DNA from: Narcine bancroftii
Taxonomy: Eukaryota
Length of the DNA: 64,000 nt
NCBI RefSeq assembly: GCF_036971445.1
Contig: NC_091475.1
Location: forward strand, 3,844,001-3,908,000
Direction: 5' to 3'
Below are positions 355-54,906 of this stretch, in pieces. The first letter of the stretch is position 1, and every line of letters begins with the position of its first letter. A program made the translations under genes and the position numbers. The notes below the pieces were generated by a model. It made no database searches. It was not told the DNA's origin and saw only the letters and a list, made by a program, of their open reading frames with translations.

Positions 355-538
355 GATGTGGAAGAAGCCCATCCAAGAAAACAAAAATAGTTGGGGGTGA
401 AGATGCCAAGAATGGAAAATGGCCTTGGCAAGTTAGTCTGCAGATGGGATTGTATGGTCACATATGTGGAGCAACCATCATCTCAAACCGTTGGCTTGTT
501 TCAGCAGGCCATTGCTTCCAAGACTCGGACTCTATACG
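355..538 (+). CDS. Gene A exon: activation site and catalytic His57
   Basis: ttttcag acceptor-type context (gtttcag|GA), donor CG|gtacgt; 184 nt; [61 protein letters not shown]. Confidence 0.95.
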
Positions 539-54200: not shown

Positions 54201-54906
54201 TAACATGCTATGAATTAGCTCTCCCTAGTGCTGAGCATTTTATGAATCAAAATGAACCAAAAGATCGAGGTGCAAGAACTGCAGATTCCATAATCTGGAG
54301 GGGAAAAATCAACCTGCAGAAGGAACCGAGCAGTTCAAGTGGAGGCACAGGGATAGCTGAGATTTCCATTTGAGATCCTGCATCGGACCCAGATAATAGA
54401 CTGAAGCCCATCTGGGGATACAAGGTTTGTGAATCCACACAAATGGTATTAACAAAATAACATCTGGAAAACCAGCTCATTTGGCACCATTAACTATATA
54501 GATGGAGTTTTATTCAAAATGCAACAGACCGATGTTTGTAGGTAAAATTGGCTTTTCAGTAATTTCTCAATTCATTCAAACTTTGTAGCTGAGGGCATTT
54601 GTAAGAAAGTAAATATTTCCACCACTGGAGAACAAGAATAGTTCCTTCAGATCAAGCTTGAAGATTTGGAACAGTCAACATAAGCCTTCATAACAAAGGA
54701 CTTTCTTTTCTTTTATATACAGACTGTGGAAACCAACAAACCGTTAGAAGTCGGATTGTCAATGGGAATGATGCAGTGATTGGTGAATGGCCCTGGCAAG
54801 TCAGCCTTCACTTTGGATCCATAGGACATACTTGTGGAGCAACTTTGATAAATAATTGGTGGCTTCTGTCTGCTTCACACTGTTTCCAAGATGTAGAATT
54901 ATACAA
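11401..54906 (+). CDS. ST14-like: Gene B: matriptase/ST14-like type II transmembrane serine protease (TM-SEA-CUB-CUB-4xLDLa-protease), exons 1-16; last three protease exons lie beyond the window
   Basis: join(11401..11478,18834..19086,24224..24351,25429..25496,27708..27892,28457..28495,30526..30712,34289..34428,36812..36909,40721..40824,42045..42178,44240..44344,45652..45759,46887..47003,48951..49067,54723..54906) = 2045 nt, all phases compatible, no stops. Four LDLa modules and the exon layout match ST14; TMPRSS6/7 have three. Confidence 0.9.
12485..13045 (-). mobile_element. Rex1/Babar-like LINE 3' fragment
   Basis: Minus-strand peptide [32 protein letters not shown] plus the shared 3' UTR. 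Confidence 0.7.
13375..14670 (+). mobile_element. CR1 LINE fragment with a nested Rex-like 3' end (about 14145-14352) and a hAT MITE
   Basis: [62 protein letters not shown]. Confidence 0.88.
14472..14588. mobile_element. hAT (Charlie/MER-type) MITE
   Basis: CAGTGGTTCTCAA terminus, internal palindrome (cccttactaacc / ggttagtaaggg), imperfect 8-bp flanks gactaaac/tactaatc. Confidence 0.55.
15200..15350 (+). mobile_element. V-SINE-type fragment
   Basis: 'gagtttgcacattctctctgtgactgcatgggctttctctgggttctctggttctttctcaca' central domain. Confidence 0.6.
16112..16183 (+). mobile_element. Extreme 3' tip of the RTE LINE
   Basis: agcctgca..tgacgtggac..aatcttcgtctgcgaagccaagccaaagaaaagaaaga matches the 3' ends of the longer copies. 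Confidence 0.85.
17572..18420 (+). mobile_element. CR1 LINE 3' fragment
   Basis: [57 protein letters not shown]. Confidence 0.9.
18834..19086 (+). CDS. Gene B exon 2: cytoplasmic tail and signal-anchor TM helix
   Basis: tttacag|ACA ... T|gtaagt; ..[11 protein letters not shown] then [22 protein letters not shown] (basic residues N-terminal to the helix, i.e. type II topology). Confidence 0.85.
20860..21780 (+). mobile_element. Fish-type L1 (L1/Tx1 clade) 3' fragment
   Basis: [37 protein letters not shown] (C-terminal CCHC zinc finger), then a T-rich UTR and aataaa/A-rich end. Confidence 0.8.
22379..22780 (+). mobile_element. Solo LTR with an internal 3x111-bp tandem repeat, TSD GCTTT
   Basis: TG...CA ends; GCTTT at 22374-22378 and 22781-22785; repeat units start at 22389, 22500 and 22611. 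Confidence 0.85.
23503..23614. repeat. 22-bp minisatellite (GAAGAAATACTGTGCTGGATTG), about 5 copies
   Basis: Read directly; a further isolated unit occurs near 23748. Confidence 0.9.
24224..24351 (+). CDS. Gene B exon 3: SEA domain, N-terminal part
   Basis: caacag|AT ... CCA|gtaagt; [43 protein letters not shown]. Confidence 0.88.
24508..25085 (-). mobile_element. CR1 LINE 3' fragment
   Basis: [23 protein letters not shown] on the minus strand plus a CR1 3' end. Confidence 0.88.
25429..25496 (+). CDS. Gene B exon 4: SEA domain, middle
   Basis: ttggcag|TTG ... AG|gtagga; [22 protein letters not shown](S); supplies the required phase 0 to phase 2 bridge. Confidence 0.82.
27583..27612. repeat. 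(TA)n microsatellite
   Basis: Read directly. Confidence 0.95.
27708..27892 (+). CDS. Gene B exon 5: SEA domain with G|SV autocleavage motif
   Basis: ttccatag|T ... G|gtatga; (FS)[23 protein letters not shown]; compare matriptase FSEG|SVIAY. Confidence 0.9.
28457..28495 (+). CDS. Gene B exon 6: 39-nt SEA-CUB linker
   Basis: attacag|AG ... AAG|gtacat; [13 protein letters not shown]; phase 1-1; ST14 has a similar mini-exon at this position. Confidence 0.65.
30526..30712 (+). CDS. Gene B exon 7: CUB1 N-terminal part (shortened)
   Basis: ctcctcag|CA ... AG|gtaagg; [63 protein letters not shown]. Confidence 0.85.
31308..31789. mobile_element. Tigger/pogo-like MITE with a nested LTR-like insert (31391-31661)
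   Basis: Ends aaccctgttatctgg / ataacagggattttactg|ta; TA flanks; the remainder matches 55039-55250 in opposite orientation; insert has TG..CA ends and minus-strand AATAAA. Confidence 0.65.
32781..33029 (-). mobile_element. V-SINE-type tRNA-derived SINE, near full length
   Basis: Minus strand: box A tggcgtagtgg, box B ggttcgaatcc, central domain, CR1-like tail. Confidence 0.8.
33375..34020 (+). mobile_element. Degenerate Rex1/Babar-like LINE fragment containing (CA)n
   Basis: [14 protein letters not shown] motif at about 33455-33500; '[11 protein letters not shown]' at about 33721. Confidence 0.7.
33831..33905. repeat. (CA)n microsatellite
   Basis: Read directly; preceded by a short (CG)n run. 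Confidence 0.97.
34289..34428 (+). CDS. Gene B exon 8: CUB1 C-terminal part
   Basis: ttgacag|A ... CAA|gtgagt; [46 protein letters not shown] (SSGNVML is CUB-typical). Confidence 0.85.
34781..34943. repeat. Perfect tandem duplication, 2x81 bp
   Basis: aaagtcagtagacttttgg...gtccagatata repeated at an 81-bp offset. Confidence 0.95.
35085..36145 (+). mobile_element. Fish-type L1 3' fragment, interrupted by a SINE
   Basis: [47 protein letters not shown]; aataaa/A-rich end. Confidence 0.8.
35493..35691 (+). mobile_element. SINE with a tRNA-Thr(TGT)-derived head
   Basis: 35495-35563 ggctccaatagc..gagcactggttttgtaaaccggggttgcgagttca..gctggggtct parallels vertebrate tRNA-Thr(UGU), with a damaged D-arm; followed by a body and LINE-like tail. 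Confidence 0.7.
36812..36909 (+). CDS. Gene B exon 9: CUB2 N-terminal part
   Basis: tttccag|CC ... ACA|gtaagt; [32 protein letters not shown]. Confidence 0.93.
37255..39440. mobile_element. Cluster of degenerate CR1 fragments (plus copies to about 39055; minus copy about 39060-39440)
   Basis: [17 protein letters not shown]; minus-strand [15 protein letters not shown]. Confidence 0.7.
40007..40246 (-). mobile_element. Solo LTR, 240 bp, TSD ACCCC
   Basis: TG...CA ends; ACCCC at 40002-40006 and 40247-40251; near-identical to 3490-3729. Confidence 0.9.
40721..40824 (+). CDS. Gene B exon 10: CUB2 middle
   Basis: ctttcag|GTA ... CG|gtacat; [35 protein letters not shown]. Confidence 0.9.
41180..41760 (+). 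mobile_element. Degenerate CR1 fragment
   Basis: [36 protein letters not shown]. Confidence 0.8.
42045..42178 (+). CDS. Gene B exon 11: CUB2 C-terminal part (GC donor)
   Basis: tgtttag|T ... AAG|gcaagt; [44 protein letters not shown]. Confidence 0.9.
42646..42851 (-). mobile_element. RTE LINE, short 5'-truncated copy, TSD AAGGCAAAT
   Basis: Matches the RTE 3' end; TSD at 42637-42645 and 42852-42860; (GTGA)n tail. Confidence 0.9.
43030..43455 (+). mobile_element. Degenerate CR1 3' end
   Basis: 'cttggacttttctctttggagcaatagagg' and the CR1 3' UTR pattern. Confidence 0.65.
44240..44344 (+). CDS. Gene B exon 12: LDLa module 1
   Basis: gttacag|AA ... G|gtaagt; [35 protein letters not shown]. 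Confidence 0.93.
45652..45759 (+). CDS. Gene B exon 13: LDLa module 2
   Basis: tttctag|AG ... G|gtaagt; [36 protein letters not shown]; compare matriptase CKNKFCKPLFWVCD. Confidence 0.94.
46887..47003 (+). CDS. Gene B exon 14: LDLa module 3
   Basis: tttctag|AT ... CAG|gtatgt; [39 protein letters not shown]. Confidence 0.92.
47260..47715 (+). mobile_element. Rex1/Babar-like LINE 3' fragment
   Basis: [39 protein letters not shown]. Confidence 0.8.
47716..48190 (-). mobile_element. CR1 RT fragment with an internal 30-bp tandem expansion (about 47915-48047)
   Basis: [41 protein letters not shown]; repeat unit cagcagttgtgggcccagcaccaaccactg. Confidence 0.85.
48951..49067 (+). CDS. Gene B exon 15: LDLa module 4
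   Basis: ttgatag|AT ... G|gtaagt; [39 protein letters not shown]; the KxNxEC pattern marks the last LDLa of matriptases. Confidence 0.94.
49160..50528 (+). mobile_element. RTE-clade LINE, 5'-truncated and frameshifted, TSD AAGTAATATTGC
   Basis: RT C-terminal half to ..[25 protein letters not shown] at 49148-49159 and 50529-50540; small deletions remove the FADD motif. Confidence 0.95.
51900..52680 (-). mobile_element. Penelope-like element fragment (GIY-YIG endonuclease and 3' repeat)
   Basis: Minus strand reads [45 protein letters not shown], with stops. Confidence 0.8.
54723..54906 (+). CDS. Gene B exon 16: activation site and catalytic His57
   Basis: tatacag|AC ... AA|gtaagt; 184 nt; [61 protein letters not shown]. 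Confidence 0.95.

What the first reader, a model, noticed from the sequence alone, without database searches (positions are those of the whole stretch)
355..54906. Tandem pair of divergent matriptase-family proteases: possible clustered zymogen cascade
Seen: two head-to-tail protease genes about 2.9 kb apart (stop 8533, proposed ATG 11401). Their activation exons have identical length (184 nt) and phases but clearly different sequence ([13 protein letters not shown] versus [13 protein letters not shown]), which suggests an old duplication with both copies retained. Known: mammals have ST14 (4 LDLa) and TMPRSS6/7 (3 LDLa), and matriptase prefers basic P4/P3, small P2 and R/K at P1. Gene B has the 4-LDLa layout but an unrelated N-terminal tail and an altered CUB1, so it looks like a paralogue rather than ST14 itself. 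Inference: both activation loops fit matriptase specificity and gene A has Asp189, so the enzymes could auto- or cross-activate as a non-mammalian epithelial protease module.
Basis: partly seen in the sequence, partly recalled or inferred. Interest (0 to 1): 0.72.

Follow-up and report, generated by a model that had tools for sequence, protein, structure and literature searches.

The report
Ancient four-gene matriptase array in rays
A ray genome carries two intact, unnamed cell-surface protease genes of the matriptase family between TMPRSS7 and a protease-less relative of the human hair-loss gene C3orf52; both lineages are shared by cartilaginous and bony fishes, were likely lost in mammals, and likely work as separate enzymes rather than as a paired activation cascade.

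Summary
Gene A (18 exons, 849 aa, 3 LDLa) and gene B (19 exons, 875 aa, 4 LDLa) are intact, head-to-tail, 2.9 kb apart, and both are spliced in RNA-like runs. They are the middle of a four-gene array: TMPRSS7 - A - B - a protease-less TTMP/C3orf52 gene that still has SEA plus two CUB domains and the same exon phases. Trees put A and B in two separate clades, apart from ST14, TMPRSS7 and a further ST14-like paralogue, each present elsewhere in this genome. A is found from chimaera to birds but in no mammal among 120 best hits; B only in elasmobranchs and non-teleost ray-fins. The cascade is not supported: A is kept without detectable B in teleosts and tetrapods, the activation loops suit any trypsin-like neighbour, and the subsites differ from matriptase (position 99 Ser in A, Met in B). 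Co-expression is unresolved. Elasmobranch B has Glu192, which in thrombin blocks Kunitz inhibitors, so it may escape HAI control (untested). The scan noted the C3orf52 link before on other DNA (e1-9178506). New members of a known family; moderate interest.

The parts
355..538 (+). Gene A exon 15: activation site KKTK|IVGG and His57. Exons 1-14 (tail, TM, SEA without the autolysis Ser, CUB1, CUB2, three LDLa) lie 39.7 to 7.4 kb upstream of the window, after the TMPRSS7 orthologue
   Evidence: spliced joint to exon 16 in runs X2 and X3
1951..2222 (+). Gene A exon 16: Asp102, Ser99, Cys122
   Evidence: GT..AG joints in X2, X3
2771..2907 (+). Gene A exon 17: Asp189, Gln192
   Evidence: joint in X3
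8375..8533 (+). Gene A exon 18: Ser195, Glu217, stop
   Evidence: partly covered by contigs of X1, X2, X4
10950..11950 (+). GC/CpG-rich 5' region of gene B, likely its own promoter
   Evidence: GC 0.56, CpG o/e 0.62 against 0.39 and 0.33 for the window; transcript contig starts at 11145
11401..19086 (+). Gene B exons 1-2 (11401-11478, 18834-19086): cytoplasmic tail and signal-anchor TM
   Evidence: spliced contig in X1
24224..28495 (+). Gene B exons 3-6 (24224-24351, 25429-25496, 27708-27892, 28457-28495): SEA domain with intact G-S-V-L-A autolysis motif, and linker
   Evidence: Pfam SEA
30526..42178 (+). Gene B exons 7-11 (30526-30712, 34289-34428, 36812-36909, 40721-40824, 42045-42178): CUB1 and CUB2
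44240..49067 (+). Gene B exons 12-15 (44240-44344, 45652-45759, 46887-47003, 48951-49067): four LDLa repeats
54723..54906 (+). Gene B exon 16: activation site VRSR|IVNG and His57
54907..64000 (+). Gene B intron 16, running out of the window; exons 17-19 follow at 65698-65969, 72460-72596, 78682-78855 (Met99, Asp102, Asp189, Glu192, Ser195, Gln217, stop), then the TTMP/C3orf52-like gene T at 86014-143029

Best explanation
Genes A and B are two intact, unnamed matriptase-family paralogues in a tandem array (TMPRSS7 - A - B - TTMP/C3orf52) shared by cartilaginous and bony fishes, and each likely works as an independent membrane-anchored trypsin-like protease that would be switched on by self-cleavage or by any co-expressed trypsin-like enzyme, not by a dedicated partner. 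Shown: signal-anchor TM, SEA, two CUB, 3 (A) or 4 (B) LDLa, full catalytic triad, Asp189, Cys122 and a basic P1 activation site in both; separate clades; gene order. Inferred from matriptase biochemistry: type II topology, cleavage after Lys (A) or Arg (B), catalytic domain kept on by the Cys122 disulfide. Inferred from sequence: they have diverged in function. A lacks the SEA autolysis serine and has a small Ser99, so it would stay single-chain in the SEA and accept larger P2 residues; B keeps the SEA site and in elasmobranchs has Met99, Glu192 and Gln217. They are neighbours likely because of ancient tandem duplication; B was likely lost at least twice (teleosts, lobe-fins), A in mammals, and the fourth copy lost its protease half.
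For: Exon chains without stops. Protease tree of 72 rows: A 25 rows 100/100, B 13 rows 96/92, ST14 12 rows 99/91, ST14-like 'zmp' 7 rows 100/97, TMPRSS7 5 rows 100/99, each one side of a branch, each with its own copy from this genome. A and B protease domains are 52% identical, no closer than either is to the genome's ST14 (56%, 51%), while A is 64% identical to its chicken orthologue. Fused NCBI models keep the order in other species: TMPRSS7+A in sawfish and 4 teleosts, TMPRSS7+A+B in sturgeon, A+B in gar and bowfin, TMPRSS7+A+TTMP in a bird. A orthologues span chimaera to birds with 0 mammals among the best 120 of 614; B orthologues are 9 elasmobranch and 5 non-teleost ray-fin proteins among the best 120 of 777. 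Subsite table; SEA serine absent in 103 of 110 A-like SEA segments. B has its own CpG-rich 5' end and spliced first exon.
Against: No activity, substrate or tissue data. Order of duplications is unresolved: AU tests reject none of A+B (p 0.31), A+B+TMPRSS7 (0.18), B+ST14 (0.18), A+ST14 (0.13), so 'tandem origin' rests on position and exon structure. Losses rest on absence from ranked lists that show only the best 120 and only certain lengths, not on genome searches. The bird gene order comes from one fused automatic model. In gar, C3orf52 lies 12.9 Mb from TMPRSS7, so the array is not kept whole everywhere. 7 of 110 A-like SEA segments do have Ser at the site. TMPRSS7 in my trees has no mammalian row, and TMPRSS6 is one genome row named by recalled likeness.
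Confidence: 0.8

Rival explanations
1. A and B form a dedicated cross-activating zymogen cascade kept together for co-regulation.
For: Adjacent in this ray and, by fused models, in sturgeon, gar and bowfin; both have Asp189 and basic P1 loops; B's loop (hydrophobic P4 in 10 of 10 and basic P3 in 7 of 10 relatives) fits the 'P3 or P4 basic, small P2' rule (PMC3141381 passages); run X1 holds spliced B and an unspliced piece over A's last exon.
Against: A persists without detectable B in teleosts, lobe-fins and tetrapods. A's loop has basic P4 in 116 of 118 and basic P3 in 116 of 118 close relatives, whereas matriptase's best substrates have one or the other, not both. Phe99 is replaced in both. 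TMPRSS7, ST14, the C11 paralogue, TMPRSS6 and TMPRSS9 in the same genome are equally able candidates.
Confidence: 0.12
2. A or B is simply ST14, TMPRSS6 or TMPRSS7 of this species, as the automatic names 'ST14 homolog' and 'TMPRSS7-like' suggest.
For: Database names; B has the 4-LDLa layout and SEA motif of ST14; B+ST14 as sister groups is not rejected (p 0.18).
Against: The genome has separate copies that fall in the ST14 clade (C17), the ST14-like clade (C11) and the TMPRSS7 clade (gene Z); reedfish, lungfish and milkfish each have A or B proteins as well as ST14.
Confidence: 0.03
3. One of the two is a decaying or silent copy, or A and B are one read-through transcript.
For: Automatic models often fuse neighbours in this array; short 2.9-kb gap.
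Against: Open frames, canonical splice sites, 74-88% protease identity of B across elasmobranchs, spliced contigs for both, B's own 5' exon, poly(A)-like signals at 8635, 8902 and 9362 after A.
Confidence: 0.05

Closest known systems
[quoted passage not shown]
   Same: TM-SEA-CUB-CUB-LDLa-trypsin layout; triad, Asp189, Cys122; B has 4 LDLa and the G-S-V-x-A SEA site; best-scoring isolated catalytic domain among solved structures for B's skate orthologue (1eaw, E 5e-85).
   Different: Separate clades and locus; about 49-56% protease identity; Phe/Tyr99 replaced by Ser (A) or Met (B); A lacks the SEA autolysis serine; elasmobranch B has Glu192, Gln217, Asn18.
TMPRSS7 (matriptase-3)
   Same: Direct upstream neighbour, same strand, same exon phases in the protease exons; A also has 3 LDLa in this genome.
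   Different: Own clade; Arg192 in 5 of 5; 49-52% identity to A and B.
TTMP / C3orf52 (LIPH partner, hypotrichosis gene)
   Same: Fourth gene of the array; TM + SEA; identical phase series to A and B over the first 11 exons.
   Different: No protease; rays keep two CUB domains while bony-fish proteins stop after SEA.
Matriptase-prostasin zymogen cascade
   Same: Membrane trypsin-like zymogens with basic P1 loops.
   Different: No shown substrate relation or co-expression; A and B are not co-retained (recalled system; PMC6331135 and PMC3431340 seen as search listings only).
Thrombin and activated protein C (Glu192 proteases)
   Same: Glu192 as in elasmobranch B; in these enzymes it confers resistance to Kunitz inhibitors (PMC8146069 passage).
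   Different: Unrelated domain layout; other loops also shape inhibitor resistance (recalled); effect in B untested.

Membership tests
Matriptase subfamily of TTSPs | N-terminal signal-anchor TM after a cytoplasmic tail | tested here: met
   Hydrophobic stretch in exon 2 of both; topology inferred
Matriptase subfamily of TTSPs | SEA, two CUB, 3-4 LDLa, trypsin domain in that order | tested here: met
   Exon chains; Pfam on orthologues P0005 (B) and P0166 (A): SEA, CUB x2, LDLa x4, Trypsin
Matriptase subfamily of TTSPs | His57/Asp102/Ser195, Asp189, Gly216/226, Cys122, R/K-I-V-x-G activation site | tested here: met
   25 of 25 A rows and 13 of 13 B rows
Matriptase subfamily of TTSPs | Proteolytic activity and inhibition by HAI-1/HAI-2 | not testable with these tools
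   Needs recombinant protein
ST14 orthologue | Falls in the ST14 clade | tested here: not met
   Own C17 copy takes that place, 99/91
ST14 orthologue | Aromatic residue 99 (S2/S4 wall) | tested here: not met
   Phe/Tyr in 12 of 12 ST14; Ser in 25 of 25 A; Met in 10 of 10 elasmobranch B, Leu in 3 of 3 bony-fish B
ST14 orthologue | SEA autolysis site Gly-Ser | tested here: inconclusive
   Met for B (own and 7 of 7 elasmobranch SEA segments; not in paddlefish); not met for A (103 of 110 lack Ser); cleavage itself untested
TMPRSS7 orthologue | Falls in the TMPRSS7 clade | tested here: not met
   Gene Z upstream does, 100/99; no mammalian TMPRSS7 row in the tree
Zymogen cascade pair | Partners co-retained across species | tested here: not met
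   A without detectable B in teleosts and tetrapods
Zymogen cascade pair | Co-expression in the same cells | tested here: inconclusive
   Spliced B in X1, spliced A in X2 and X3; contigs of one study, tables cut
Zymogen cascade pair | One enzyme cleaves the other's activation site | not testable with these tools
   Needs cross-activation assay
TTMP/C3orf52 (gene T) | Orthology by sequence and position | tested here: met
   SEA exon finds 13 proteins; of the 10 looked up, 4 clusters are named TPA-induced transmembrane protein; clade of 9 rows SH-aLRT 100; human order TMPRSS7, C3orf52; no mammalian row tested

The most novel reading that the evidence does not exclude
Rays preserve the ancestral four-gene matriptase array of jawed vertebrates, of which mammals kept only TMPRSS7 and a protease-less stump (C3orf52), and the elasmobranch gene B, with thrombin-like Glu192, is a matriptase that escapes the HAI Kunitz inhibitors that restrain matriptase.
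Probability: 0.25. Interest if true: 0.65.

Novelty: new member of a known kind. Interest (0 to 1): 0.4.

Why it matters
It adds two unnamed, long-lived lineages to a subfamily usually counted as four genes from mammals. Gene A is present in chicken and teleosts under 'ST14-like' names, so inhibitor, antibody or expression studies of 'matriptase' in these animals may mix paralogues. The array gives a concrete origin for C3orf52, a human hair-loss gene of unclear mechanism, as the stem of a matriptase. Natural variation at residues 99, 192 and 217 across tandem copies offers a ready test of what sets substrate choice and HAI sensitivity. It is not a new kind of system.

Tried and rejected
Cascade reading: rejected as best explanation (see rivals). 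RNA: no listed holder is on record as RNA; four guessed-RNA runs of one study gave spliced B in X1 and spliced A in X2 and X3; missing cover elsewhere is no evidence either way, and repeats swamped the depth table. A second LDLa exon for gene A between -13858 and -12211 was sought and not found. LDLa or protease exons after gene T's CUB2 were sought up to 158 kb by Cys pattern and tblastn, and trypsin motifs up to 264 kb, none found; T's last exon was not located. Atlas search with T's SEA exon gave only unrelated bacterial clusters. My first hand-set exon bounds and a regex count of SEA motifs were wrong and were redone. In one search, 4 of 15 'best hit B' proteins are TMPRSS9-named and were not counted as B. 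Seven protease domains could not be cut out of their models by my pattern and were left out of the tree. Deep branching could not be resolved. The model of stingray T (pLDDT 79) best matches TMPRSS6 (E 4e-25, TM 0.39), but its alignment held matriptase rows, so this is only partly independent. No complex was predicted: an enzyme-substrate pair is a poor case for it. Ten literature searches listed no paper describing A, B or the array; subscription papers are not covered, the C3ORF52 discovery paper was not held, and the sequence table of PMC13762310 (114 protease sequences) was not seen and may include these genes under other names.
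Full report
Place and observation. The window is G000:C16:3844001-3908000 of a 3.3-Gb genome; the closest relatives of gene B's protease exon are rays (85% and 83%). Coordinates below continue the window's numbering; negative ones lie upstream. With 200 kb fetched on each side both genes close as open exon chains: B has 19 exons and 875 aa, with four LDLa repeats and intact protease exons at 65698-78855; A has 18 exons and 849 aa, starts at -39657 and has three LDLa exons (a fourth, present in bony-fish orthologues, was not found). 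Both are spliced: run X1 joins B exons 1 and 2 without mismatch, X2 and X3 join A's protease exons at GT..AG. These are contigs of four guessed-RNA runs of one study, so they show transcription but not tissue or co-expression.

The pair is the middle of an array. A third activation exon 51 kb upstream belongs to a TMPRSS7 orthologue (gene Z, about -91508 to -43128) ending 3.5 kb before A's ATG, with a calponin-repeat exon at about -115445, as for TAGLN3-TMPRSS7 in other vertebrates (PMC6170504 passage and supplementary table rows). Downstream, 7.2 kb after B's stop, lies gene T (86014 to at least 143029). Its SEA exon finds 13 proteins; of the 10 looked up, four clusters are named TPA-induced transmembrane protein (C3orf52) in sturgeon, arapaima, bichirs and gar. 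In this ray T continues through a short linker exon, two CUB1 exons and three CUB2 exons with the same phase series as A and B, 65% identical to a 465-aa stingray protein with SEA and CUB and no protease. No LDLa or trypsin exon was found after it. The stingray model matches TMPRSS6 best, a result that partly leans on the alignment I supplied. In human, TMPRSS7 and C3orf52 are listed side by side at 3q13.2 and MORC1 at 3q13.13 (PMC2997777 table passage); MORC-like exons follow T here at 158-170 kb (Pfam score under its cut-off). Against a rigid array: in gar C3orf52 maps 12.9 Mb from TMPRSS7.

Identity and age. In a 72-row protease tree A (25 rows, 100/100), B (13, 96/92), ST14 (12, 99/91), an ST14-like group that includes zmp:0000001114 (7, 100/97) and TMPRSS7 (5, 100/99) are each one side of a branch, and each holds one copy from this genome (seven domains that my pattern could not cut out were left out). 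A stem tree of 35 rows gives the same groups plus T. A and B each contain cartilaginous and bony fishes, so they split before those lineages did. Their order of origin is open. A orthologues run from chimaera, sharks and rays through bichir, sturgeon, teleosts, lungfish, coelacanth, salamander and caecilians to reptiles and birds, with no mammal and no frog among the named rows of the best 120 of 614 (one row is unnamed). B orthologues among the best 120 of 777 are 9 elasmobranch proteins plus reedfish, paddlefish, sturgeon, gar and bowfin (sturgeon assigned by tblastn only); the many mammals in that list are named ST14 or TMPRSS9. Fused automatic models keep the order TMPRSS7-A (sawfish, four teleosts), TMPRSS7-A-B (sturgeon), A-B (gar, bowfin) and TMPRSS7-A-TTMP (a bird). 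Losses are inferred from ranked lists, not from genome searches.

How they likely work. Both have the triad, Asp189, Gly216/226 and Cys122 in all tree rows. By analogy with matriptase, which autoactivates on the membrane and can also be activated by other trypsin-like enzymes (PMC5567652 passages), each would be cut after its basic P1 and stay tethered. They have diverged where specificity is set. Position 99, which walls S2 and S4 in matriptase (PMC3141381 passages), is Phe/Tyr in 12 of 12 ST14, Ser in 25 of 25 A, Met in 10 of 10 elasmobranch B and Leu in 3 of 3 bony-fish B. Position 192 is Gln in A and ST14, Arg in 5 of 5 TMPRSS7 and Glu in 10 of 10 elasmobranch B but Gln in 3 of 3 bony-fish B; position 217 is Gln in the same ten (chymotrypsin labels recalled, placed by alignment to a primate ST14). 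Glu192 gives thrombin and protein C resistance to Kunitz inhibitors (PMC8146069 passage), so elasmobranch B may evade HAI-1/2; this is a lead, untested. The SEA autolysis serine is kept in B and missing in 103 of 110 A-like segments.

The cascade idea. For it: adjacency wherever B is seen in fused models, and B's loop fits the matriptase rule. Against it: A has lasted without detectable B in most bony vertebrates; A's loop is doubly basic at P4 and P3 (116 of 118 each among proteins at least 58% identical), which is not matriptase's best pattern; neither enzyme has matriptase's S2 wall; and TMPRSS7, ST14, the C11 paralogue, TMPRSS6 and TMPRSS9 of the same genome are equally able candidates. 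Tight spacing is shared by all four genes, including the protease-less one, so it likely reflects tandem origin rather than a special A-B link. I put the dedicated cascade at about 0.12.

Known and new. The family is described as three matriptases plus polyserase-1 (PMC4161349 passages); zebrafish work names st14a and st14b (PMC12173237 passages); a 2026 tree sampled TMPRSS6, 7, 9 and ST14 across vertebrates (PMC13762310 passages; its table not seen). C3ORF52 is described as a LIPH partner of unclear function (PMC12715598 passages). The databases searched hold A and B under automatic names such as 'ST14 homolog' or 'TMPRSS7-like'. Ten searches listed no paper on these lineages or the array, within an open-access library. 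PMC5597622 and PMC8015242 (passages) added nothing.

Verdict. Real, intact, ancient paralogues: new members of a known family. The cascade is unlikely. The value lies in the evolutionary history of the TMPRSS7-C3orf52 locus and in testable subsite changes, above all Glu192. Interest 0.4.

Noticed in passing
L023-L028 (G000:C16:3930014-3987029; 86014-143029 in continued window numbering): TTMP/C3orf52 orthologue that keeps two CUB domains and the matriptase exon phases; an intermediate between a full matriptase and the TM+SEA protein of bony fishes. The stored NCBI model P0259 leaves the frame in CUB1, while an in-frame splice matches the stingray protein.
   Followed up: yes
L051 (G000:C11:181945001-181955000): A further ST14-like gene, sister to ST14, grouping with teleost zmp:0000001114, bowfin and a caecilian protein; another matriptase lineage with no mammalian row in my tree.
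   Followed up: partly
window 59209-60927 (-), 49643-50473 (+), 62400-64000: Young LINE copies with a 572-aa reverse-transcriptase-like open frame (RTE-like by recalled likeness) inside gene B introns.
   Followed up: no
window 42045-42178: Gene B exon 11 uses a GC donor; the skate model P0005 reads past this point, likely a mis-splice for the same reason.
   Followed up: partly
window 5046-5249, 22389-22719, 23504-23614, 47915-48048: Intronic tandem repeats: a perfect 13-mer x15.7, a 111-mer x3, a 22-mer x5, a 30-mer x3.
   Followed up: no
L054-L056 (G000:C1:108.85-108.88 Mb) and C1:108771609: Two neighbouring protease matches on C1, one activation-exon match with a stop inside; identity not worked out.
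   Followed up: no
P0192 (chicken gene A orthologue): Bird gene A appears to have fewer LDLa repeats (one by pattern count) than fish orthologues.
   Followed up: no
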